From assembly GCA_964645005.1 (NCBI GenBank), contig CAZXYS010000006.1, positions 4,741 to 68,740 of the forward strand: DNA of 64,000 bases, given 5' to 3'. The notes beneath the pieces were generated by a model. That model saw only the letters and a program-made list of their open reading frames with translations. It did no database searches and had not been told where the DNA came from. This DNA comes from an uncultured Hyphomicrobiales bacterium (lineage in GTDB: Bacteria; Bacteroidota; Ignavibacteria; Kapaibacteriales; UBA2268). The translations under genes and the position numbers were made by a program. This document shows positions 2,298 through 21,476 of the stretch, one piece after another; the first letter of the stretch is position 1, and each line of letters opens with the position of its first letter.

Positions 2298-3578
2298 ATG
2301 AAGAAAATAATCAAAAAAATAATGTCTTCGCTGGAAAAGAAATATACGAATTTCATTGAATTCGTGAAACCTTACTCCAAGACAATTTTTATAGACAGCA
2401 CACTTGCAACAATTCTGTGCTTTGCTATAATGTTCGTTTTCCTTAATTTATTTTCTTCAAAATACTTTGAACCGTTCAAAGAAAGTTTCCGTGATTTTCA
2501 GATTACTGATATAACTTATTCGGATTTGAGGGATGATATTAGTGTCCGGGCTGATCCGAATATAGTGCTGATAGACGTCTGGAGATTGAATAAACCGGGG
2601 CTGGCTCAACTGATAAAACGATTGAATGATAACAACCCGGCTGTTGTTGCGATAGATAAGATATTTACAAAAGGGGATAATAAGCTGAATGATCTGGTAT
2701 TAGCTGATGCCCTGAAAAACACCGACAACCTTGTAATGGCATACAGGCTTTCGAATAACTCAGAGGGGGCTAAGTATTATGATGAAATGATAACCAGCGA
2801 TAGCATGTTTATCCAAAATGCCTCTATGGGATATTCAAATCTGATGTTCGGGAAAAACAAGGAAATCTCAACAGTAAGAGAATTTGTACCTAAACATTCT
2901 TTTAAAGGTAAAGAATTATTCTCTTTTGGAGTTCAAACGGCAAAGAATTATAATCCTGCGGTAGTGGAAAATTTATTCAGCAGAAATAAAAACAGAGAAA
3001 TAATAAATTATCGTGCGGATTGGAAGAAATTTACTTTTCTCGAAGGAATCAAAGTCCTCAAGGAAGATGTAGACAGAAATGTTATTGAAGGAAAGATCTT
3101 AATCTTAGGTGATGTAGGCGCTTTCAGAGAATATGAACTCCTCGAGGAATTATATTTCACACCTCTTAACGAGAGAATAGCCGGCAGGACACTGCCGGAT
3201 ATGTCGGGCGTGGAAATACATGCTAATATTGTGTCAATGATAAAAACCGGTGATTATTATGGAGAAATGCCACTTTGGATAGGTTTTTTATTGGCTGTTA
3301 TTTTATGTTATGTAAATATGTGGATTTTTAGTTACATTTGCATTAAGAATAAAACATGGTTCGAGATCAACAGCTTGTTGATCTTTCTCTTGGAATCAGT
3401 AGCATTGTTATATCTTACGGTTCAGATTTTTAACAAATATCATTATCAATGTACTTTTACCATAGCTCTTTTCGCAGTAGCATTATCAGTTTTCATATAC
3501 CAAATTTACAATGAAACATTTAAACCATTTTATCAAAGACTTAGTAATAAATTAAAAAATTCAAAGGTGTCGACATGA
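2298..3578 (+). CDS. CHASE2 extracytoplasmic sensor domain membrane protein without cytoplasmic output domain
   Basis: N-terminal TM, ~300 aa extracytoplasmic domain with the CHASE2-typical GVEIHANIVSMI motif, three C-terminal TM helices and no kinase/cyclase domain. Paralog of 5735-6922. Stop overlaps the next start (ATGA at 3575-3578). Confidence 0.65.
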   Translation: MKKIIKKIMSSLEKKYTNFIEFVKPYSKTIFIDSTLATILCFAIMFVFLNLFSSKYFEPFKESFRDFQITDITYSDLRDDISVRADPNIVLIDVWRLNKPGLAQLIKRLNDNNPAVVAIDKIFTKGDNKLNDLVLADALKNTDNLVMAYRLSNNSEGAKYYDEMITSDSMFIQNASMGYSNLMFGKNKEISTVREFVPKHSFKGKELFSFGVQTAKNYNPAVVENLFSRNKNREIINYRADWKKFTFLEGIKVLKEDVDRNVIEGKILILGDVGAFREYELLEELYFTPLNERIAGRTLPDMSGVEIHANIVSMIKTGDYYGEMPLWIGFLLAVILCYVNMWIFSYICIKNKTWFEINSLLIFLLESVALLYLTVQIFNKYHYQCTFTIALFAVALSVFIYQIYNETFKPFYQRLSNKLKNSKVST

Positions 3579-4561
3579 AAAAATATTTAGTTTTATTTAT
3601 GACAATGTTGTTGACCGCAGCAATAAATATTTTCGCGGCTGAACCTGATTTTAAAGTGCTGGCTTTAAATGGTGAACTTCAAATTAGCAAATCCGGCGGA
3701 AGTTGGGAACCTATTAAATCAAATACGGTGCTGCATGAGAAAGACAAGGTAAAATTGGGAAATAAAGCTTACCTCGGTCTGGTACACTCGAGTGGTAGAA
3801 CAGTGGAATTAAACAAAGAAGGTGTTTTCACCTGCAGGGAATTGAAAAAAATTGCCAATAAAAAAGGCAGTGAATTAACAAAGCGATTAGCAAAGTATGT
3901 CATTGATGAAATCGGCGACGCTGATGATCTCATGGCAACAGATGATTATCATGAATATATGGATGTCACCGGGTCCGTAGAAAGAGGATTGAGCTTAAAT
4001 GAAATTGAAAATATGAAAAAGGAAGCCGATAAAGAGAAAGGTTTCATCCTTGAATCAGGCAGATATATCGTTATGATCTCTCCCAAAAAGACAAGTTTAA
4101 TTGATCCGGAAGCAAGTATTCAGTGGTATGGGATCAAAGGTATAGATGAATATCAAATAACTTTCTACGACAGATTCGAAAGAAAAATTCTATCTGACAC
4201 TATTCAGGATACCGTTTATAATCCGGATATGTCCGGGGATGGTTTTGAACCCAATAAATATTATTTCTATACGGTTGCTGCCGTGAACCATCCAAGTATA
4301 AGATCTGAAGAGTGTGCCTTCACTATTTTAAATGAAGAAGAGCGGGAAATGATTCGCCAGGAACTTCGAAAATTGGAAGAAGAACTGGGTGAAGAAAGAA
4401 CCCCCCTTGAAAATCTTATGATAGCAGCTTTTTATGAGGATCACAAGTTATTTAATAAAGCTGAAAAATATTACCGAAAAGTCGCAATGGAGAATCCTGA
4501 AGTGGATAAATTCCAGGATATCTATAAAGCTTTTAATTATAAAAAAAGTAAAGGATATTGA
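3575..4561 (+). CDS. FecR-like secreted protein with Fn3-like middle and TPR-like C-terminus
   Basis: Signal peptide (MKKYLVLFMTMLLTAAINIFAA). N-terminal region resembles the FecR fold (LALNGELQISKSGGSWEPIKSNTVLHEKDKVKLG...LVHSSGRTVEL). Shares a conserved core with 4610-5689 (KYVIDEIGDADDLM...DYHEYM...GSVER). Confidence 0.5.
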   Translation: MKKYLVLFMTMLLTAAINIFAAEPDFKVLALNGELQISKSGGSWEPIKSNTVLHEKDKVKLGNKAYLGLVHSSGRTVELNKEGVFTCRELKKIANKKGSELTKRLAKYVIDEIGDADDLMATDDYHEYMDVTGSVERGLSLNEIENMKKEADKEKGFILESGRYIVMISPKKTSLIDPEASIQWYGIKGIDEYQITFYDRFERKILSDTIQDTVYNPDMSGDGFEPNKYYFYTVAAVNHPSIRSEECAFTILNEEEREMIRQELRKLEEELGEERTPLENLMIAAFYEDHKLFNKAEKYYRKVAMENPEVDKFQDIYKAFNYKKSKGY

Positions 4562-4609
4562 TCTTTAAACGTAATAATCATATACAAGCAAAAAATATAC
4601 TAAATATTA

Positions 4610-5689
4610 ATGATGCGGGTAAATAAAATGGCTGCAAAATATTTAAAATTAACGATATTTCCGGCTGCAGCAATGGTTTTGTTGATGCTGTTTAACTTAA
4701 GTGATTTAAAAGCTGGGAGTTACGAATTCAGGGCAATTGCTGTGAACGGCGACGTCGATTACAAAACCGGAAGCAGTGGGAACTGGAAAACCCTGAAAGT
4801 CGGTACTGAACTTCAGAAGAGTTACAGTATAAGATTAAAAAGATCATCTTATGCAGGTCTTGTTCATATTTCCGGGAAAACGCGGGAACTTGAAAAGAAT
4901 GGATCATATTCGGTTTCTGAATTGTCAAAACAGGTTTCCGTAAAGGAAAGTGGTCTTAATAAACGATTTACCAAATACGTGATAGACGAAATAAGCGACG
5001 CCGATGATCTAATGAGTTATGGTGATTACCATGATGACATGGGAACTGTCGGTTCGGTGGAAAGAGCGATCGACGAGGACTTCGAAGTTTCCGAAAAAAT
5101 CGGGAAATTAGGGAAAATGGATGATGAGACAAAGTCCTCATTGCGTGATGCCGACAAATTAGTATCATTGAAGAAGGAAATGATCAATATTCGTTTTCCA
5201 AGAAGCAGTTATATTATTGATGAAAAAATAGCTTTTTCGTGGCGTTCACACCCTGAAGTAAAGGAATACAAGTTAGTTATAAAGGATAAGGACAATCATA
5301 CTGTTTTCAGTAAAAAACTCAGAGATACGGCTTTAGCTGTCAATGTTCAGGAAACAGGTATTCAGCCGGGGAAGAATTACTACTGGAAAGTGAAGTCTGA
5401 CAAAATATCATCTTCGGAATACTGTATTTACAGGCACAGTGAAGAAACTTCACCTCAATTATTTGCCGAACTAAAAGAAATGAAAAGTAGTTATGCTACG
5501 GATAGAAGCGCATTGAACAATATAATTATGGCGTCGTTTTACGATGAACACAACATTATGCAGCGAGCTCTGCAATGTTATCAACGCGCTATGAAGTTAT
5601 CCTCCAAAACTAAAGAATATCAGAAGCTATATTCTCTATATTTGGGGCGTATTGGCTTACGTGAAGAAGCAAGAAAATTTGCTCAATGA
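4610..5689 (+). CDS. FecR-like secreted protein, paralog of 3575-4561
   Basis: Signal peptide. KYVIDEISDADDLMSYGDYHDDMGTVGSVER block is shared with the upstream paralog. C-terminal TPR-like helix (MASFYDEHNIMQRALQCYQRAMKL). Confidence 0.5.
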   Translation: MMRVNKMAAKYLKLTIFPAAAMVLLMLFNLSDLKAGSYEFRAIAVNGDVDYKTGSSGNWKTLKVGTELQKSYSIRLKRSSYAGLVHISGKTRELEKNGSYSVSELSKQVSVKESGLNKRFTKYVIDEISDADDLMSYGDYHDDMGTVGSVERAIDEDFEVSEKIGKLGKMDDETKSSLRDADKLVSLKKEMINIRFPRSSYIIDEKIAFSWRSHPEVKEYKLVIKDKDNHTVFSKKLRDTALAVNVQETGIQPGKNYYWKVKSDKISSSEYCIYRHSEETSPQLFAELKEMKSSYATDRSALNNIIMASFYDEHNIMQRALQCYQRAMKLSSKTKEYQKLYSLYLGRIGLREEARKFAQ

Positions 5690-5734
5690 ACTTTATAATC
5701 ATAAATTTCAAAGGGATTTCTAGAATAAACGCTA

Positions 5735-6922
5735 ATGAAGTATATATTTTCATTAAATAACATTATAAGCACTTTATTTGTTTATCTGGTCCTGGCACTT
5801 TTACCGTATTTCTTTGAGATTGATTTCCTCAATCCCATTGAGAATACTCTGGAGTCATTCAGCATTACGGATATGTACTTCTCACAACTGCAAAATCATG
5901 ATGAGATTCCGGTTGATTCGAACATTGTACTTGTTAATATTGGTGATCTTAAGCGTAGAGGTATTGCCAAGCAAATTGAAATAATAAGCCGTTACGATCC
6001 CAAAGTCATTGGCATAGATGCATTTTTCAGAGACGAAAAAGAGCCCATGCAGGATGTTCCTTTAATAAATGCAATTAAAAAATCAGAAAAAATTGTCCTT
6101 GTTACAAAGATAGCCAATTATGATAAGTCCAAGAAAACACATGACACTGTAGAAACATCACATGATAAATTCACCCAATCCGCTTATCAAGGTTACGCAA
6201 ATTTCTACATACCTAAAGATGATTTCCGAACCGTTCGAAAGTTTTCACCCAAAGAAAATCTTCACGATACGCTGCAATATTCATTTGCGGTGGAAGTCGC
6301 CCGTAATTATGATTCCGCTGCAGTTGACAGACTTCTCGAAAGAGATAACGGACTTGAAATAATCAATTTTCGAAGAGGTTACGACAAGTATATTACACTC
6401 AGTACAAAGGATGTTTTCGTTAAAAGAAATGAACTGGATTTTATTAAAGATAAAATTGTGCTGTTGGGATTCATGGGACCGAATCTCATCACACCTACGG
6501 ACGGAGACATATTCTTCACCCCTATGAATGATAATTTTGTCGGCAAAAGCTATCCGGATATGTATGGTGTTGAAGTTCATGCCAATATCATTTCAATGAT
6601 TCTTGACGGCAAATATTTCGAAATGATTCCGGACTGGCTCTCTTTTACTTTAACAATCCTGCTGGTTTATTTCAATATGGCTTTTTTTTCATATTTAAGG
6701 GATAAACGTGAGGGACTATATGAACCAATAAGTATTATTGCGACTTTTGGAGAGTTGATACTTGTATTTCTTTTTATACTCTGGTTCTTTTATTTATTCG
6801 GAATAGAGATAAGAGCCAGCGGAGTGTTTTTCGCTATCATTCTTCTTAAGCAGATCTATGAATTATATAATGATTCGATCAAGCAAATAGCAATAAATTT
6901 TTTCAAGCGAAGATTTCAGTAG
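5735..6922 (+). CDS. CHASE2 sensor domain membrane protein, paralog of 2298-3578, no output domain
   Basis: GVEVHANIISMILDGKYFEMIPDWLSF motif is near-identical to the one in 2298-3578. Same architecture: N-terminal TM, extracytoplasmic domain, C-terminal TM bundle. Confidence 0.65.
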   Translation: MKYIFSLNNIISTLFVYLVLALLPYFFEIDFLNPIENTLESFSITDMYFSQLQNHDEIPVDSNIVLVNIGDLKRRGIAKQIEIISRYDPKVIGIDAFFRDEKEPMQDVPLINAIKKSEKIVLVTKIANYDKSKKTHDTVETSHDKFTQSAYQGYANFYIPKDDFRTVRKFSPKENLHDTLQYSFAVEVARNYDSAAVDRLLERDNGLEIINFRRGYDKYITLSTKDVFVKRNELDFIKDKIVLLGFMGPNLITPTDGDIFFTPMNDNFVGKSYPDMYGVEVHANIISMILDGKYFEMIPDWLSFTLTILLVYFNMAFFSYLRDKREGLYEPISIIATFGELILVFLFILWFFYLFGIEIRASGVFFAIILLKQIYELYNDSIKQIAINFFKRRFQ

Positions 6923-9834: not shown

Positions 9835-12800
9835 TTATCTGCTAACAACAAAGCTCCTTGTCAGTACATTATCACCGGCGCTAAGCCTGAAGTAATACAC
9901 GCCGGGAGCTAAATCTTCAGTGTTGACATCTATTCCCAGGTTTCCTTTTCCTGCCAATCCATGCTTCACCATTTTCATGAATTTACCTTCGGCATTGTAT
10001 ATCTCCAAAGAGAATTTGGAAGGTTCAGGCAGATAAATATTTAATTTAGTTGAATTTGCCGCAGGATTGGGACTGTTCTGTTCCATGACCACACCGCCGG
10101 ACATTGTCCTGTCGGGAACTGATGATGGATCAATACCAACTCCGGATAAGTTCATTTCATAATTTTTGCCAGCCACGTCAGTCTTAACAATCAATTTGGC
10201 TTTTCTTATACCTTCTTTTTCAGGAGTGAACTGTAAGCGTACAATCCCCTTTTGATTTGGCTCCACATAATCCGGTTTGCCAAGGAAGAATCCAAATTCG
10301 TTTTCTTCGGTATCTTCCAAAGGTTGAATAGTCAGTTCAGTGAAATGTACATCAATTTCTCCGGTATTCTCAAATTCCACATTTTGCAGATCTTTACTTC
10401 CAATATTCGTGGTGTCGAATTCAACGTTCTCATCTGATAACAACTCGATGTTCTGGTCTGCATCATTAGGAACATATTTAAAATTAAAATTGCTTACCCA
10501 TGAATCAAATTCCCAGACCTTAACTTCAAACCCTGGATTAACAACAACTGCTCCGGACTGAGCTCCGACAGACTGTTCACTTAGCACAGGTGTCCAGCTT
10601 TCGCCCATGTCGTCAGTCCAATAAATTTCACCCCCTGAGCATAGAACGTAAAACTTATCACTTCGGGGCAATGAGAAGAAATGAACCGGCTGAAGGGCGA
10701 AATCAGAGAAATTAAATACGTTCTTTTTCCATGTTTTTCCGCCATTTGTTGTTGATGCTGCCAACTGTTCTCCCTCGTGATCCGATTCAGTATAGATGGC
10801 TATGCCGTTATTTTTATCATAAAAGCCTAATTTTAAAATAAAGCCATTATTATAAACTGTTGACTCATCCCATGAGGCACCTTTATTGCCGGATTTATAG
10901 ACTCTTCCTTTCGACGTTCCGAACCATACATCCGTACCTAAGCGGAAGTGGCTGCCGACAAATCCATTTTCGTCATTCAGCGGGGGAGGAATATTATCGA
11001 CACGTGACCAGTTTTTGCCGCCGTCAGTTGAGCGAGCAACACCCCAATCAGCACCAATAGGATCACCCAAAAACAATCCTTCCCTATCATCAAAAAATAT
11101 TATCTCGTTAATAAAATTAGTAATTCCCTGAATATTATTTACCTGCCAATTGTTCCCGCCATTAGTGGTCTTAAGTACTCTTGCATCGCCGCCGCTTGTC
11201 TTTGATGATACTGCAAAAGCTGTGTTTTTATCAATCGGTGCTATCGAGAAAAATGGATCTCCGTTTAGTGTATTGGTTGAAGAATTTGTACTGGGATTAT
11301 AGCGATAGTATACTGGTAATGTATAATATCCGTAGGCTAAAGCATATCCTGCAGCCCAAACGGAATTATCATCGGTCAATTTCGCTGAGGTCCATCTCAG
11401 GTTCATGTTGTTGGGATATTTGGTGACTGTTGACAAGCGATTGTTGCTGGTCATTAAAATGGGCAAATTTAATATCTCATAATCAACATAGTCGCTGCTT
11501 TCGTACGTTAGAGTAAGTTTAATTTGTCCTCTAAACCATGGATTCATCTCGTTTAGCTGCATCCTGAGTGTAAATTCCTTCGATTTATCTTTAGCCAGGA
11601 AACCAAGATTGAATTCAGTTTTATTGAATTCGACAAAATTATTAACGCTGGATAATTTTACTTTCAGATTCGAAGCATTTGCCAGATAGTTTGTTACTTC
11701 GATATTAACACTTGTTTTTTCGTAATCATTAATAGCATCAGAGCCGACGAATTCTACATTGGTAATAGCTATACCCGGTACATTTTTACCAGGATTATTG
11801 CCGTTATAGTCAAGTGCTTCAAAAGCGTTTATCCTGCCATAAAACAGAGGTTTATAAGCGGGATTGCTGGTCAGTACATCGTCAGATGTACTTCTGATCT
11901 GTTTCATAAGATGAATAGGGCTCCAATTAGGCTTAAAAGATTTCAACAGCGCCATAACCCCCGCTACTACAGGTGATGCCATTGATGTTCCGCTTTGATT
12001 ACCATAGCGGTTATTCATCAAAGTGGAATAAATGTTGTGCCCCGGAGCGTAGATATTAACCGAATTACCAATATTGGAAAAACCTGCCACACCATCATTG
12101 TTTGCGGTAGCTCCAACAGTGAAAACATTGTCATAAGCTGCCGGATACTGAGGATTTGTATCAATATTCTGAAAATTATCATTACCGGCTGCAACCACAA
12201 CTACGGCACCCATATCCATAGCTTGATTTATTACATCCTGCTCGGCAGGGCTGGAACCAGGTCCACCCCAGGAACAGTTAATAACGTCAGCGCCTAATTC
12301 CGCTGCATAGATGATTCCCTGATATCCATGTGTGATAGCCGGTCGTCCGCCCTCATCCCCGGATACTTTGACGGGAACAAATGAACAATTGAATCCCGGA
12401 GAAAGCACCCCGGTACTGTTATCCGTCACAGCAGCGGCACAGCCCGCAACATGAGTTCCATGATTGTTATTTGCGTCATTTGGTTTTACAATCGAGTCAT
12501 TTCTGGCAAGGTCCCATCCATGAACGTCATCCACATAACCGTTTTCATCATCATCTTTGCCATTATTGGGAATTTCGTTTGGATTTGTCCAGAGATTTTC
12601 TTTTAAGTCTTCGTGATCTGTGTCAGTACCTGAATCGACGATCCCTATCAAAATATCTTTGCTGCCTTTGGATATATCCCAGGCTTTTTTCAGTTCGATC
12701 TTGTTTGTCATCCATTGCCTGTTTTGGGATGGATCGTTAGGTGTATATTCAAATGGATATCTCATGAAAACCGGAACGGCATATACAATCTCAGGATTTT

Positions 12801-13287
12801 TCATAAGCTCTTTGCAGGCGTCATAAGCATCCACCGGTGAAGAATATTCCACCTTATATATTCTGCTTATACCGTGCTTGTCCGCCGATTTCAGATCGCC
12901 TTCTCCATATTTTGCGAATGGCTGGCGAATTTCCTTTATGTTAAGATCCTCGATCGAACTCTGCAATATCATCGAGCGAAAGCCTTTATCTTCCTTTGAT
13001 ATTTTATAGTATCCCTTAGTTTTTATATGGATAGTGTTTTCCTGATAATATTCCTTGTCAACTATAGGGATATTGTAGATTTTTGCAGGCTTGTATGTGT
13101 TTGGTCCTGTTTTTACTCCTGGTATTACTATCTTATAGGCAATCTTTTGCCCGTCGCCGGGAATATATTTCGGGGAATCGTTCTTTTTTCCCTGATAACT
13201 TAATGGTGAGAGTGAGAAGAGAGGGATTGTAAGAATAAATCCCATTAATACTGTCAAAGATATAAATATTCGTCTAAAGTCTTTCAT
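9835..13287 (-). CDS. Subtilisin-family (S8) serine peptidase with C-terminal BNR-like propeller and T9SS sorting domain
   Basis: Catalytic triad motifs GIVDSGTD (Asp), HGTHVAG (His), GTSMASPVVAG (Ser). Later Asp-box-like repeats (TTNGGNNWQ, STDGGKNWS, TTNGGKTWK, TDDMGESWT). C-terminus NSPNPAANSTKLNIYL...GVYYFRL matches a T9SS CTD. Confidence 0.85.
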   Translation of the reverse strand: MKDFRRIFISLTVLMGFILTIPLFSLSPLSYQGKKNDSPKYIPGDGQKIAYKIVIPGVKTGPNTYKPAKIYNIPIVDKEYYQENTIHIKTKGYYKISKEDKGFRSMILQSSIEDLNIKEIRQPFAKYGEGDLKSADKHGISRIYKVEYSSPVDAYDACKELMKNPEIVYAVPVFMRYPFEYTPNDPSQNRQWMTNKIELKKAWDISKGSKDILIGIVDSGTDTDHEDLKENLWTNPNEIPNNGKDDDENGYVDDVHGWDLARNDSIVKPNDANNNHGTHVAGCAAAVTDNSTGVLSPGFNCSFVPVKVSGDEGGRPAITHGYQGIIYAAELGADVINCSWGGPGSSPAEQDVINQAMDMGAVVVVAAGNDNFQNIDTNPQYPAAYDNVFTVGATANNDGVAGFSNIGNSVNIYAPGHNIYSTLMNNRYGNQSGTSMASPVVAGVMALLKSFKPNWSPIHLMKQIRSTSDDVLTSNPAYKPLFYGRINAFEALDYNGNNPGKNVPGIAITNVEFVGSDAINDYEKTSVNIEVTNYLANASNLKVKLSSVNNFVEFNKTEFNLGFLAKDKSKEFTLRMQLNEMNPWFRGQIKLTLTYESSDYVDYEILNLPILMTSNNRLSTVTKYPNNMNLRWTSAKLTDDNSVWAAGYALAYGYYTLPVYYRYNPSTNSSTNTLNGDPFFSIAPIDKNTAFAVSSKTSGGDARVLKTTNGGNNWQVNNIQGITNFINEIIFFDDREGLFLGDPIGADWGVARSTDGGKNWSRVDNIPPPLNDENGFVGSHFRLGTDVWFGTSKGRVYKSGNKGASWDESTVYNNGFILKLGFYDKNNGIAIYTESDHEGEQLAASTTNGGKTWKKNVFNFSDFALQPVHFFSLPRSDKFYVLCSGGEIYWTDDMGESWTPVLSEQSVGAQSGAVVVNPGFEVKVWEFDSWVSNFNFKYVPNDADQNIELLSDENVEFDTTNIGSKDLQNVEFENTGEIDVHFTELTIQPLEDTEENEFGFFLGKPDYVEPNQKGIVRLQFTPEKEGIRKAKLIVKTDVAGKNYEMNLSGVGIDPSSVPDRTMSGGVVMEQNSPNPAANSTKLNIYLPEPSKFSLEIYNAEGKFMKMVKHGLAGKGNLGIDVNTEDLAPGVYYFRLSAGDNVLTRSFVVSR

Positions 13288-18962: not shown

Positions 18963-21476
18963 ATGATGATCACAAAAAAATTAAATTGCTTACTCACTTC
19001 ATTAATATTAATTTTAATTTTCAGTTCAAACGCCTTCTCGGAAAACAAAAATGTAGAGCAATTCCAGTATCTTTCTCCCGTACCTGATGCTGTTTTTGTT
19101 TCACCATTTAATGATCTGATCATTAGATATGGTGAGGAGCTTGATGAATCAACCGTTAGCGCGGATCTTATCGAAGTGACTGCTTCGATTAGCGGCGTCC
19201 ACGATGGAGAAGTTATTTTACTGGAAGATAAGAAAACTATGCTCTTCCAGTTTTTCAACAGTTTCGAATATGATGATACCGTAACAGTATCATTGTTGCC
19301 GGGAATAAAGACTTCAGGCGGAGCTCCCGTACCGGAAATGACTTATACTTATTATGTATCAAGTTTCAGTTATTACTATGGGACACAAGCACCACCCGAT
19401 GATCCGACTGATAATGATATCCCTGATATTATGAAAGCAGGGGATGCAGGTAAAGTCAAAAATGACGAATTACTTTTTGACAAAACGGAATACCTCGAGA
19501 GCAGGCATCTCCCAGATGATTTTCCTCCAATGAAAGTAGATCGATACGGAGAACCCAACCCTGGATATTTGATGCTTACTCCTTTTGCCTGGAAAGATTC
19601 AGTTCTGGGTAATTATATCGTAATGATGGATAATTGGGGAACTCCTGTTTTTTATAAAAGCTATCCTGATTCCGTATTTAGCGCGGAATTCAAAATCCAT
19701 CCTAACGGTTATGTAACTTTTTTTGATGCAACTAAAAGGCACTTCGCTATTTATGACAGTTCCTTCAACAAAATCGGACACATAAAACATAGGAACGGTT
19801 ACCTGAACGATTTTCATGAACTTCTTGTCACTGAAGATAACCATAAATGGGTAATGACCTATGATCACCAGTGGGTGGATTTGACCGATTCACTCGAAGG
19901 GGGAATGCCAAACACCGAATTAGTTGGACTGATTATCCAGGAGCTTGATGAAAATGACAATGTTATCTTCCAATGGAGAAGCTGGGATAACTTTTCTATC
20001 TTTGATGCACATTTGCCAGGTGTGAGATATGATACCAATGCCTCAACTATTGATTATGTCCACGGCAATGCTATAGAAATTGAATCTGACACTGCTGTTC
20101 TTATATCCAGCAGAAATCTATCGGAGATAACAAAAATAGACCGTAGAACCGGGGAGATTATCTGGCGATTCGGTGGAAAGAACAATAGTTTCGATATTCA
20201 AAATGATGACAGAGTTCTTTCCTGGCAGCATGATTGCCGGCGATGGTCCAATGGCAATCTCTCTGCATTTGATAACGGTGTGCACCATGATAATCCTTAC
20301 TCCGGTGCTGTGGAATACAAAATTGATGAAGAAAATATGACGGCAGAATTGATATACAGACATATAATCGATGAAGATCATTTAGCTCGTGTTACGGGAA
20401 GTTCCAGGCACCTTGATAATGGCAATTTACTTGTAAGCTGGGGTTCTGCAAGATTTCCGAATATATCTGAGTATGATTCTCTTGGCAACAGAGTCCTGGA
20501 TGTTTCGTATCCTTCAATAAATTATAGAACTTATAGATATCCCTGGAAGACTACGCTATTCGGAACTGATATCGAGATGATTGATTACCAGAGTTTTGTT
20601 ATCGGCGATCCGGTTAAAAATAATATTACTTTGAGTACTGATTCATCGGATAACATTGAAATTAGCAGCTATCATACTAATTATGATGCTTTCAGTATAA
20701 CTGAAGATATCCCTCTGGATATTCCCGGAGAAGGTTCAACAGAAATTGAACTTATTTTTGATCCGCAGGAAAATGGATATTATGAAGATGTTCTAACCCT
20801 TAACCATGACTATGAGACATCTAGAATTGCCCGGCAGGTACATTTGAAAGCTATTGTTTTCAATAGTATGGATCCGGTAAGTTTAAGCTTCGAACCTCAG
20901 GATAGCTCCGAAAATGTACCGGTTGATAAGAAAATAGTGATTAATTTCTCCGAAGCTGTCCAAACCGAAGAAGGAAATAAATTAACACAATTAAATGCAG
21001 CCGGCTTTATTATGCTTGAAGACAGCGCCACCGGCGAAACTGTGCCTTTCTCCGCAACTATTTCCGGATTGAAAAAGACAATTACTGTTAAGCCTGACAA
21101 TCCTTTTGATAGTGCTTCAACTTATTATGTTGGTATCAAAGATGGATTAATGGATTACAGAGATGAAGCAGTAGTAGTTGACAGCGCTAAGTTTTCCACA
21201 CCGGAATATCCTTCCTCAATTTATGAGGAACCTGTCTCGGAAATAAAGCTTTATCCGAATCCGGCAAATGACCAAATCTATCTGGAAAATGAAAGTAATC
21301 TGCTCATTGAAAAGGTAGACATAGTGAATTCCTTTGGCAAAAAGGTCAGGCAATTACAAAATATAACCGGCACTCTCAATAAGATCGAAATGTCAGGTCA
21401 ATCTCCAGGTTTGTATTTTGTAAGGATTTTCACATTCGACGGCAAAATCTACAGATATAAATTTATCAAAAGGTGA
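18963..21476 (+). CDS. Arylsulfotransferase (ASST)-like beta-propeller protein with Ig-like domains and T9SS C-terminal sorting domain
   Basis: Central region IDRRTGEIIWRFGGKNNSFDIQNDDRVLSWQHDCRRWSNGNLSAFDNGVHH resembles the ASST family (PF05935) propeller. Signal peptide. C-terminal KLYPNPANDQIYLEN...GLYFVRIF matches a T9SS CTD. Confidence 0.55.
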   Translation: MMITKKLNCLLTSLILILIFSSNAFSENKNVEQFQYLSPVPDAVFVSPFNDLIIRYGEELDESTVSADLIEVTASISGVHDGEVILLEDKKTMLFQFFNSFEYDDTVTVSLLPGIKTSGGAPVPEMTYTYYVSSFSYYYGTQAPPDDPTDNDIPDIMKAGDAGKVKNDELLFDKTEYLESRHLPDDFPPMKVDRYGEPNPGYLMLTPFAWKDSVLGNYIVMMDNWGTPVFYKSYPDSVFSAEFKIHPNGYVTFFDATKRHFAIYDSSFNKIGHIKHRNGYLNDFHELLVTEDNHKWVMTYDHQWVDLTDSLEGGMPNTELVGLIIQELDENDNVIFQWRSWDNFSIFDAHLPGVRYDTNASTIDYVHGNAIEIESDTAVLISSRNLSEITKIDRRTGEIIWRFGGKNNSFDIQNDDRVLSWQHDCRRWSNGNLSAFDNGVHHDNPYSGAVEYKIDEENMTAELIYRHIIDEDHLARVTGSSRHLDNGNLLVSWGSARFPNISEYDSLGNRVLDVSYPSINYRTYRYPWKTTLFGTDIEMIDYQSFVIGDPVKNNITLSTDSSDNIEISSYHTNYDAFSITEDIPLDIPGEGSTEIELIFDPQENGYYEDVLTLNHDYETSRIARQVHLKAIVFNSMDPVSLSFEPQDSSENVPVDKKIVINFSEAVQTEEGNKLTQLNAAGFIMLEDSATGETVPFSATISGLKKTITVKPDNPFDSASTYYVGIKDGLMDYRDEAVVVDSAKFSTPEYPSSIYEEPVSEIKLYPNPANDQIYLENESNLLIEKVDIVNSFGKKVRQLQNITGTLNKIEMSGQSPGLYFVRIFTFDGKIYRYKFIKR

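What the first reader, a model, noticed from the sequence alone, without database searches (positions are those of the whole stretch)
2298..6922. Mirror-ordered duplicated module of output-less CHASE2 sensors and FecR-like secreted partners (A-B-B'-A', all same strand)
CHASE2 normally serves as the extracytoplasmic sensor of kinases, cyclases or GGDEF proteins. Here two paralogous CHASE2 membrane proteins (2298-3578, 5735-6922) end right after their C-terminal TM bundle with no output domain. Each sits next to a paralogous signal-peptide protein with a FecR-like N-terminus (3575-4561, 4610-5689); the first pair is translationally coupled by an ATGA overlap. The gene order A-B-B'-A' on one strand cannot come from a simple tandem duplication. 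That suggests either two duplication/rearrangement events or selection for the central FecR-FecR juxtaposition. The output partner of this sensory pair, if any, is not encoded locally. The module may signal through protein-protein contacts with a kinase or cyclase elsewhere, or serve a non-signalling role such as an envelope scaffold.
Basis: partly seen in the sequence, partly recalled or inferred. Interest (0 to 1): 0.7.

Follow-up and report, generated by a model that had tools for sequence, protein, structure and literature searches.

The report
Output-less CHASE2 sensor-partner operon, rearranged
These four genes are one rearranged copy of a widespread but undescribed Bacteroidota/Ignavibacteria operon that pairs membrane CHASE2 sensor proteins lacking any output domain with a dedicated family of periplasmic partner proteins, and those partners are not FecR-like but carry an adhesin "retention-module" fold.

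Summary
The sequence-level observation holds. There are four same-strand ORFs at the stated coordinates: two CHASE2 proteins (A1, A2; Pfam 76 and 94 bits) that end 17-23 residues after their last TM helix, and two signal-peptide proteins (B1, B2). Both paralog pairs align end to end at about 30% identity, and A1/B1 overlap by ATGA.

Two parts of the interpretation fail.
- **The "mirror" order is not a duplication signature.** The paralogs are old. In 30 of 30 other two-CHASE2 loci the order is A2-A1-B1(-B2...). The window alone has A2 moved to the 3' end, and independent assemblies reproduce that order.

The real finding is a conserved module. In 64 of 68 evaluable species genomes a B gene sits next to the stand-alone CHASE2 gene(s). 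The B family has at least 672 clusters and no Pfam model. CHASE2-B and CHASE2-CHASE2 fusion ORFs exist. Function is inferred only: a periplasmic co-receptor complex that signals to a partner encoded elsewhere.

The parts
2298..3578 (+). A1: stand-alone CHASE2 membrane protein (426 aa), orthologue of the second CHASE2 gene of the conserved operon
   Evidence: ORF. PF05226 76 bits, residues 92-333. Falls in a 32-member clade where 30 other members are the second CHASE2 gene of their locus.
2385..2441 (+). A1 TM1 (residues 30-48), preceded by a Lys-rich cytoplasmic N-terminus
   Evidence: Kyte-Doolittle hydropathy 2.28.
3273..3506 (+). A1 C-terminal three-TM bundle (residues about 326-403). Only 23 residues follow, including the conserved YNETFKP tail motif at 3504-3527.
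   Evidence: Hydropathy peaks at residues 326, 360 and 385. The tail motif is conserved in A2 and in the fusion proteins.
3575..4561 (+). B1: exported partner protein (328 aa), start codon overlapping the A1 stop (ATGA)
   Evidence: AF2 model pLDDT 84.6. Orthologues 36-40% identical in L009, L095 and L097.
3650..3832 (+). B1 N-terminal beta-domain (residues 26-86), the most conserved part of the family. It has the fold of the LapA/MpIBP retention-module domain.
3968..3985 (+). B1 conserved linear motif TGSVER (residues 132-137) inside a low-confidence helical linker. The B2 equivalent, VGSVER, is at 5048-5065.
   Evidence: G133, V135 and R137 are at least 90% conserved across 146 family representatives. 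The model has pLDDT below 50 at residues 127-139. Coordinates.
4088..4327 (+). B1 central FN3/Ig-like beta-sandwich (residues 172-251)
   Evidence: Foldseek hits to FN3 domains, E about 1e-4, probability 1.00. Model strands.
4334..4549 (+). B1 C-terminal TPR-like helical hairpins (residues 254-325)
   Evidence: Sub-threshold TPR_1/TPR_8 hits in 24 of 44 members. The family profile hits TPR chains in PDB at E 7.5e-6.
4610..5689 (+). B2: second exported partner protein (359 aa), orthologue of the last B gene of multi-B operons. N-domain 4727-4912, FN3 5204-5434, TPR-like 5441-5677.
   Evidence: 39% identical to L009 g4 and L095 g9617, against 29-32% to B1. B tree. Domain mapping.
5735..6922 (+). 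A2: stand-alone CHASE2 membrane protein (395 aa), orthologue of the first CHASE2 gene of the conserved operon, here displaced to the 3' end
   Evidence: PF05226 94 bits, residues 44-311. 49-62% identical to first-position genes in L009, L095, L097 and L093. Clade of 34 whose other members are 30 first-of-two genes, two single-CHASE2 loci and L093.
6635..6868 (+). A2 C-terminal three-TM bundle (residues about 301-378), followed by a 17-residue tail that carries the LYNDSIKQ motif (6863-6886)
   Evidence: Hydropathy. Y329, E330, E376 and S381 are invariant in the A2-type alignment.

Best explanation
The four genes are one copy of a conserved operon of the Bacteroidota/Ignavibacteria/Kapabacteria (FCB) lineage. 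I could find no description of it in the literature library searched.

Shown:
- The operon encodes stand-alone CHASE2 membrane proteins with the layout TM, periplasmic CHASE2 domain, three TMs, short tail.
- It also encodes one to four copies of a dedicated periplasmic partner of about 300 aa. The partner consists of a Sec signal peptide, a beta-domain with the LapA/MpIBP retention-module fold, a helical linker with a conserved TG(S/A)VER motif, an FN3 domain and TPR-like hairpins.
- In one sub-lineage the CHASE2 gene duplicated once (A2, then the more divergent A1) and the partner gene duplicated in tandem (B1...B2). This gave the canonical order A2-A1-B1-B2.
- The window carries all four orthologues, but A2 has been relocated from the 5' to the 3' end. 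The 'mirror' order is therefore a lineage-specific rearrangement, not a mirrored duplication.

Inferred:
- The conserved N-terminal domain and linker motif of B dock onto the periplasmic CHASE2 domains of an A2/A1 hetero-oligomer.
- The more variable FN3/TPR part of each B paralog recognises a ligand or an envelope component.
- The state of the complex is passed through the three-TM bundle, the conserved cytoplasmic loop and the tail motif ((Y/F)E.Y..S.KP) to a signalling protein encoded elsewhere.
- On this reading the module is a co-receptor or accessory sensor without an enzymatic output of its own.
For: Anatomy:
- CHASE2 HMM hits, topology and short tails.
- B architecture from an AF2 model with pLDDT 84.6.
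- FN3 and TPR.

Obligate pairing:
- 64 of 68 evaluable species-representative genome loci have a B gene beside the CHASE2 gene(s), in unrelated flanking contexts.
- Start/stop overlaps recur in other loci.

Physical association:
- L046 is a single 750-aa ORF: CHASE2, three TMs, the retained B signal-anchor, then the B domains.
- L017 is an 825-aa fusion of an A2-type and an A1-type CHASE2 protein with 8 TMs.

Age and order of the paralogs:
- Orthologue identities of 36-54% against 29-33% for paralogs.
- NJ trees put window A1 with 30 second-position genes and window A2 with 30 first-position genes. B1 groups with first-B genes and B2 with last-B genes.
- L009, L095 and L097 show A2-A1-B1-(Bx-)B2.
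- The window order is real, being reproduced in two independent assemblies.

Family size and conservation pattern:
- B has 672 representatives of 50%-identity clusters at E <= 1e-30, all about 300-345 aa among the best 150.
- The N-domain and the TG.VER motif are the conserved core, and FN3/TPR are more variable.

Precedent for CHASE2 receptors working with envelope partner proteins:
- LysM-FecR protein next to a CHASE2 histidine kinase in Burkholderia and Pseudomonas (PMC5192318).
- The outer-membrane protein NsrA feeding the CHASE2 cyclases CyaD1/D2/K in Sinorhizobium meliloti (PMC13001267).
Against: - There is no direct evidence that A and B bind each other.
- Each fusion ORF is a single observation in a MAG and could be an assembly or frameshift artefact.
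- Four loci with enough flanking sequence lack a recognisable B gene (L038, L073, L075, L080).
- No cytoplasmic or membrane output partner was identified. Response-regulator and kinase genes occur within 4 kb in only 10 loci, which I judged unremarkable without testing it statistically.
- The retention-module similarity is structural only (11-12% identity) and rests on a predicted model. The NCBIfam score is 14.9 bits against a cutoff of 50.
- The only cytoplasmic domain ever seen fused to a family member is a cNMP-binding domain (L007). That is an input domain, and it would fit a model in which the CHASE2 protein is itself the effector just as well.
Confidence: 0.55

Rival explanations
1. Non-signalling envelope complex. 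The CHASE2 proteins are inner-membrane anchors, and the B proteins are periplasmic struts or plugs. Their retention-module-like domain, FN3 spacer and TPR hairpins would tether or gate another envelope component such as an outer-membrane channel, peptidoglycan or the T9SS/gliding machinery. No information would flow to the cytoplasm.
For: - There is no output domain.
- The B N-domain's only structural relative is a periplasmic plug/anchor domain of RTX adhesins (10.1101/198937).
- FN3 and TPR are typical scaffold modules.
- An LD-carboxypeptidase (Peptidase_S66) gene is adjacent in 7 loci.
- The proteobacterial CHASE2 partner carries a peptidoglycan-binding LysM domain (PMC5192318).
Against: - In every experimentally studied case found in the literature search, CHASE2 is a sensor domain.
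- The cytoplasmic loop and tail motifs of A are conserved, which a purely periplasmic scaffold would not need.
- One family member carries a cytoplasmic cNMP-binding domain.
- No conserved outer-membrane or T1SS gene lies in the neighbourhood.
Confidence: 0.25
2. A sensory module made by duplication events that produced a mirror order A-B-B'-A', with FecR-like partners and selection for the central FecR-FecR junction.
For: The gene order in the window is real, and the pairs are paralogous.
Against: - No FecR signal by HMM, hhalign or fold search.
- The paralogs predate the lineage, and orthologues elsewhere are ordered A2-A1-B1-B2 in 30 of 30 loci.
- B-B adjacency is ancestral and comes from tandem copies, 1-4 per locus.
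- In the closest relative, A2 still follows xth as in the canonical operon.
Confidence: 0.04
3. The CHASE2 genes are decaying remnants of CHASE2 kinases or cyclases that lost their output domains, so the module has no function.
For: They end where the linker to an output domain would begin.
Against: - The listed relatives have a uniform length of about 375-460 aa, out of 1198 protein clusters and 466 genome relatives.
- There are many invariant residues.
- Operon structure and translational coupling are conserved.
- Orthologues have been retained since an old duplication.
Confidence: 0.02

Closest known systems
CHASE2-containing receptors (Pfam PF05226), e.g. the Sinorhizobium meliloti adenylate cyclases CyaD1/CyaD2/CyaK, which act with the outer-membrane protein NsrA (PMC13001267)
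   Same: The same extracytoplasmic domain, scoring above Pfam's threshold. The same membrane layout: TM, ectodomain, three TMs. Perception through a separate envelope protein.
   Different: Here nothing follows the last TM except 17-23 residues. There is no cyclase, kinase, GGDEF or Ser/Thr-kinase domain. The partner is a soluble periplasmic protein, not an outer-membrane beta-barrel.
Proteobacterial LysM-FecR (COG4254) + CHASE2 histidine kinase operons (Burkholderia 'BiofilmReg' RR-PBP-HK-DUF4136; the related P. aeruginosa PAO1 PBP + HK pair) (PMC5192318)
   Same: A signal-peptide protein encoded right next to a CHASE2 membrane protein as a conserved unit. This is the closest known logic.
   Different: That partner has PF04773 and LysM domains and lies upstream of the CHASE2 gene. 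The CHASE2 protein there is a PAS-HisKA-HATPase kinase with a cognate response regulator. Here the partner has no FecR or LysM, lies downstream, occurs in 1-4 copies, and the CHASE2 protein has no output.
Retention module of LapA-like RTX adhesins (MpIBP N-terminal domain, PDB 5ix9; NCBIfam NF033682) (10.1101/198937)
   Different: About 12% identity and an HMM score below the cutoff. B is a 300-aa Sec-exported protein, not the N-terminus of a giant T1SS adhesin. There is no LapG-type TAAG site, and no LapB/C/E, LapD or LapG genes are nearby.
DUF928 (PF06051), found next to a CHASE2 sensor gene in Nostoc punctiforme (PMC5587647)
   Same: Weak, collinear, nearly full-length matches of the DUF928 profile to the FN3 plus helical part of several B proteins. 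Both are neighbours of CHASE2 genes.
   Different: All matches are below Pfam's threshold (best E 7e-4; 7 of 146 and 5 of 44 members). Homology is unproven.

Membership tests
CHASE2 (PF05226) | Profile HMM score above Pfam's gathering threshold | tested here: met
   A1 76.1 bits and A2 94.1 bits against a cutoff of 26.3. All 120 listed A2 homologues carry PF05226.
CHASE2 (PF05226) | Extracytoplasmic location between an N-terminal TM and a C-terminal multi-TM segment | tested here: met
   Hydropathy gives 1 + 3 TMs with Lys/Arg-rich N-terminus, TM2-TM3 loop and C-tail. This is prediction only. No PhoA/LacZ data exist.
CHASE2 receptors as usually described (kinase, cyclase, GGDEF or STK output) | Cytoplasmic output domain after the TM bundle | tested here: not met
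   17-23 residue tails. No second Pfam or NCBIfam domain.
FecR (PF04773) | Profile HMM match | tested here: not met
   No hit at E <= 1 for B1 or B2. Not among the 25 families listed by member count for 44 members or 146 members.
FecR (PF04773) | Profile-profile or fold similarity to genuine FecR domains | tested here: not met
LapA-type retention module (NF033682; PDB 5ix9) | Fold of the N-terminal plug domain | tested here: met
LapA-type retention module (NF033682; PDB 5ix9) | HMM score above the curated cutoff | tested here: not met
   14.9 bits against a cutoff of 50, E 0.024. The N-domain profile does not find 5ix9 by sequence.
LapA-type retention module (NF033682; PDB 5ix9) | Sits at the N-terminus of a giant T1SS RTX adhesin with a LapG dialanine site and lapBCE/lapDG genes | tested here: not met
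   B is 300-360 aa with a Sec signal peptide. No such genes occur among the recurrent neighbours.
DUF928 (PF06051) | Profile HMM score above the gathering threshold (26 bits) | tested here: inconclusive
   Best about 15 bits in the 10 members scanned individually. Best E 7e-4 among 146 members. The matches are collinear over profile positions 33-178 of 184.
TPR | TPR repeat HMM match | tested here: inconclusive
   Sub-threshold TPR_1/2/8 hits in 24 of 44 members. The family profile hits designed and natural TPR chains in PDB at E 7.5e-6 to 1e-4. The model shows four helices in hairpins.

The most novel reading that the evidence does not exclude
The output-less CHASE2/B module is a self-contained envelope switch that works like the Lap system rather than like a classical sensor. 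On this reading the retention-module-like domain of B plugs or engages an envelope pore or partner. The conserved TG(S/A)VER linker motif is a regulated cleavage or release site. The CHASE2 hetero-oligomer plays a LapD-like role as the inner-membrane protein that holds or releases B, in some lineages under cyclic-nucleotide control through a fused cNMP-binding domain. That would be a new type of inside-out periplasmic control system in Bacteroidota, and a first non-receptor function for CHASE2.
Probability: 0.08. Interest if true: 0.8.

Novelty: new variant of a known kind. Interest (0 to 1): 0.45.

Why it matters
CHASE2 is one of the common bacterial extracytoplasmic sensor domains for which no ligand, no solved structure and no mechanism is established. 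This work shows three things:
- Across a whole phylum-level lineage, the standard form of CHASE2 is an output-less membrane protein.
- That protein is almost always encoded with a dedicated periplasmic partner family. The family is large, has no Pfam model, and is built on an adhesin retention-module fold.
- Fusion ORFs give a testable hypothesis for how the parts assemble.

This offers a compact system of two to four small genes, present in cultured Cytophagales such as Hymenobacter translucens, Rapidithrix thailandica and Rhodocytophaga aerolata. It could be used to ask how CHASE2 domains perceive signals through partner proteins and how a sensor without an output domain transmits information.

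It also corrects the annotation idea that these partners are FecR-like. And it shows that the eye-catching mirror order is an ordinary rearrangement.

Tried and rejected
- **FecR hypothesis.** Tested four ways and rejected: Pfam on B1/B2, Pfam on 44 and 146 family members, hhalign against a genuine FecR alignment, and fold searches (with showing that FecR structures are in PDB).
- **AFDB fold search.** The library was not available.
- **Whole-protein Foldseek against PDB.** It returned only generic FN3 hits, so the N-domain was modelled separately.
- **Sequence search of PDB.** The CHASE2 profile found no solved structure. The B N-domain profile gave only spurious helical hits.
- **Local output partner.**
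  - No kinase or cyclase in the flanking window ORFs scanned, 106-21476.
  - REC/PAS/kinase genes lie within 4 kb in only 10 loci, which I treated as unremarkable without a statistical test.
  - The xth gene immediately upstream in 18 loci is a DNA-repair gene, so I treated it as lineage synteny.
- **Internal terminators.** None lies in the intergenic gaps of the module.
- **Assembly artefact as the cause of the unusual order.** Rejected.
- **Truncated-pseudogene idea.** Rejected on conservation.
- **Literature.** Searches for CHASE2 in Bacteroidota, and for DUF928, found nothing describing this module.


Full report
**1. What is in the sequence.**

- A1, 2298-3578, 426 aa
- B1, 3575-4561, 328 aa
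- B2, 4610-5689, 359 aa
- A2, 5735-6922, 395 aa

A1 and B1 overlap by ATGA. The other gaps are 48 and 45 nt, and no terminator-like hairpin lies in any gap.

Pfam CHASE2 (PF05226) hits A1 at 76 bits and A2 at 94 bits, against a cutoff of 26.3. A1 and A2 align over 378 residues at 30% identity (E 2e-68). B1 and B2 align over 329 residues at 29% identity (E 1e-50).

Hydropathy gives each A protein one N-terminal TM, a roughly 280-residue ectodomain and three closely spaced TMs. Only 23 (A1) or 17 (A2) residues follow. The N-terminus, the TM2-TM3 loop and the tail are Lys/Arg-rich, which fits an N-in, C-in topology with CHASE2 outside.

B1 and B2 start with hydrophobic signal sequences that lack a lipobox cysteine. 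The gene order is not an assembly artefact: independent Logan assemblies of runs SRR7048228 and SRR7048218 reproduce it.

**2. The partners are not FecR-like.**

- PF04773 does not hit B1 or B2 even at E <= 1.
- It is not among the 25 most frequently matched families listed for 44 homologues or for 146 further representatives.
- hhalign of the B N-domain profile, or of the whole-family profile, against an alignment of 14 genuine PF04773 proteins gives 0.1-0.2% probability. That FecR alignment is shallow, so this test alone is weak.

An AlphaFold2 model of B1 built on the family alignment is confident (pLDDT 84.6). It shows, in order:
- a signal helix
- a seven-strand beta-domain (residues 26-86)
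- a helical, partly disordered linker (87-161)
- a beta-sandwich (172-251)
- four helices (254-325)

The sandwich is an FN3/Ig-like domain (Foldseek E about 1e-4). The helices are TPR-like.

5ix9 is the template used to model the LapA "retention module", a periplasmic plug that keeps the adhesin stuck in its TolC-like pore (10.1101/198937). A weak NCBIfam retention_LapA hit falls on the same residues of B1.

Solved FecR-domain structures exist (6ovk/6ovm, 4m0n/4m0h) but are absent from both hit lists.

**3. The real unit is a conserved CHASE2-B module.**

The single-sequence, word-indexed search found only 44 B homologues. An exhaustive profile search found 672 representatives of 50%-identity clusters at E <= 1e-30 and 1426 at E <= 1e-10. 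The best 150 are all 276-359 aa. No Pfam family covers them.

A2-type stand-alone CHASE2 proteins number 1198 clusters. The scan of the species-representative genome collection confirmed 466 relatives. The 80 loci retrieved come from Kapabacteria, Ignavibacteria, Cytophagales, Flavobacteriales and Chitinophagaceae.

I classified all ORFs in those 80 loci with HMMs built from my alignments. Of the 68 loci with enough flanking sequence, 64 have a B gene directly beside the CHASE2 gene(s). The flanking genes differ from locus to locus, so the pairing is not mere synteny.

The arrangements seen are:
- A-B, in most Cytophagales and many Ignavibacteria
- divergent B/A, in six Flavobacteriales loci
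- A2-A1 followed by one to four B genes, in the lineage closest to the window

Start/stop overlaps between consecutive genes recur, for example in L005, L010 and L095.

Two fusion ORFs point to physical association:
- L046 encodes CHASE2, three TMs, a retained B signal-anchor and the B domains in one 750-aa ORF. That layout places the B part back in the periplasm.
- L017 encodes an A2-type plus an A1-type CHASE2 protein in one 825-aa, eight-TM ORF.

Each is a single MAG observation.

**4. The "mirror order" is a rearrangement.**

Each window gene has clear orthologues elsewhere:
- In L009 the four genes are 51% identical to A2, 48% to A1, 36% to B1 and 39% to B2, in that order. Each is 29-32% identical to the other window paralog.
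- L095 is xth-A2-A1-B1-B2.
- L097 is A2-A1-B1-Bx-B2.

Neighbour-joining trees agree:
- Window A1 lies in a 32-member clade in which 30 other members are the second CHASE2 gene of their locus.
- Window A2 lies in a 34-member clade whose other members are 30 first-of-two genes, two single-CHASE2 loci and L093's A2. That clade groups with the 52 single-copy CHASE2 genes.
- B1 groups with "first B" genes and B2 with "last B" genes. Both B clades are confined to two-CHASE2 loci.

So the CHASE2 gene duplicated once, with A1 as the more divergent copy. B duplicated in tandem. The order A2-A1-B1-B2 then became fixed. In the window only A2 is out of place.

In the closest relative found (L093, A2 62% identical), A2 still follows xth as in the canonical operon, but a convergent gene follows it rather than A1. 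The window itself contains no xth. The A2|A1 junction was therefore broken in this lineage. The exact path cannot be reconstructed from the data at hand.

B-B adjacency is ancestral and needs no special selective explanation.

**5. How it probably works (inference).**

The most conserved parts of B are the N-terminal domain (F26, A30, G33, Y66, G68, L69, G74, E78) and a TG(S/A)VER motif in the otherwise poorly ordered linker. The FN3 and TPR parts vary more. Copy number of B varies from 1 to 4 per module.

The A proteins keep invariant residues in three places:
- the ectodomain
- the cytoplasmic TM2-TM3 loop (WYEP)
- a short post-TM tail, (Y/F)E.Y..S.KP

The simplest model has four steps:
1. 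The constant N-domain and linker of B dock on the CHASE2 ectodomains of an A2/A1 hetero-oligomer.
2. The variable FN3/TPR parts supply specificity.
3. The TM bundle and the short cytoplasmic motifs relay the state to a protein encoded elsewhere.
4. The module therefore acts as an accessory sensor or co-receptor.

Published CHASE2 systems also rely on envelope partners. A LysM-FecR protein sits next to a CHASE2 kinase in Burkholderia and Pseudomonas (PMC5192318). The outer-membrane protein NsrA feeds the CHASE2 cyclases of Sinorhizobium meliloti (PMC13001267).

I found no local output gene. The window's flanking ORFs from 106 to 21476 encode a protein with no Pfam match, a hydrolase, T9SS-secreted proteins and glycosyltransferases. 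Kinase or response-regulator genes lie near the module in only 10 loci, which I treated as unremarkable without a statistical test.

The main rival is a non-signalling envelope scaffold or tether. It is favoured by three observations:
- the plug-like fold of the B N-domain
- the scaffold-type FN3 and TPR domains
- an adjacent LD-carboxypeptidase gene in seven loci

One Cytophagales-type member has a cNMP-binding domain fused to the cytoplasmic end (L007). This shows that the cytoplasmic face matters, but it fits either model.

**6. Comparison with known systems, and novelty.**

The A proteins are bona fide CHASE2 family members that lack the output domain of the described receptors. The B proteins are not members of FecR. 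They share a fold, but not family membership, with the LapA/MpIBP retention module.

B proteins also show weak, collinear, sub-threshold matches to DUF928. DUF928 is reported next to a CHASE2 gene in Nostoc punctiforme (PMC5587647). That lead is unresolved.

No paper in the searched library describes stand-alone CHASE2 proteins of Bacteroidota or this partner family.

I classify the module as a new variant of a known kind: a CHASE2 sensor plus a secreted partner, but without an output domain and with a new partner family.

**7. Verdict.**

- Observation: partly confirmed. Everything holds except FecR.
- Interpretation: partly supported.
- Interest: moderate, 0.45. This is a well-supported, phylum-wide, uncharacterised sensor-partner module with a testable assembly model, but no demonstrated function and no deeply surprising mechanism.

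Noticed in passing
L046:7001-9253 (MAG Bacteroidota bacterium SSF3, JAIBAE010000060.1): A single 750-aa ORF fuses a CHASE2 protein (with its three TMs) to a complete B protein. The B signal peptide is retained as a further TM segment. This is Rosetta-stone-type support for an A-B complex.
   Followed up: partly
L017:130-2607 (MAG Bacteroidetes bacterium clean1621, DAHXMP010000108.1): An 825-aa ORF fuses an A2-type and an A1-type CHASE2 protein (8 TM segments). No recognisable B gene lies in the 4 kb downstream.
   Followed up: partly
L007:6278-7996: A family member of 572 aa carries a C-terminal cNMP_binding domain (PF00027) after the TM bundle and is still followed by a B gene. It is the only cytoplasmic domain seen fused to this CHASE2 subfamily.
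   Followed up: no
L001:4757-5578 and 17 other loci (e.g. L011, L015, L095): An exodeoxyribonuclease III-like gene (Exo_endo_phos) sits immediately upstream of A2 on the same strand in 18 loci, at 0-60 nt in most and up to 337 nt. It is absent from the whole 64-kb window, although the closest relative L093 keeps it.
   Followed up: partly
L001:8949-9986, L034:10359-11438 and five other loci including Flavobacteriales (L053, L057, L070, L082): A Peptidase_S66 (LD-carboxypeptidase) gene lies directly next to the module in seven loci from two distant lineages. This may hint at a cell-wall connection.
   Followed up: no
L051, L054, L069, L085, L087, L090 (just downstream of B): A small NfeD-like membrane protein gene overlaps or abuts the B stop codon in 6 loci of a high-GC lineage. 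An SPFH/band-7-like gene follows about 450-550 nt downstream in 5 of them.
   Followed up: no
L038:9305-10975 (OW818676.1, complete 4.2-Mb chromosome): Here A2-A1 is followed, with a start/stop overlap, by a 556-aa ORF that does not match the B profile. It may be an alternative partner.
   Followed up: no
window:106-2157 (- strand): A 683-aa ORF diverging from the module has no Pfam match at E <= 1e-5.
   Followed up: no
window:8143-9726, 9835-13287, 18963-21476: Three large proteins with type IX secretion C-terminal sorting domains lie just downstream of the module: a BNR/sialidase-like protein, an S8 subtilase with a sortilin-like domain, and an arylsulfotransferase with Big_5.
   Followed up: no
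L014-L016, L020, L023, L029, L032-L034, L040, L041, L081 (record titles): Many MAGs titled 'uncultured Hyphomicrobiales bacterium' carry this FCB-type operon, and their proteins are most similar to Kapabacteria/Ignavibacteria. The record titles look taxonomically wrong.
   Followed up: no
P0024 residues 138-302; P0019 residues 195-306: Weak but collinear, nearly full-length matches of Pfam DUF928 (profile positions 33-178 of 184) to the FN3 plus helical part of B proteins. DUF928 is reported next to a CHASE2 gene in Nostoc punctiforme (PMC5587647).
   Followed up: partly
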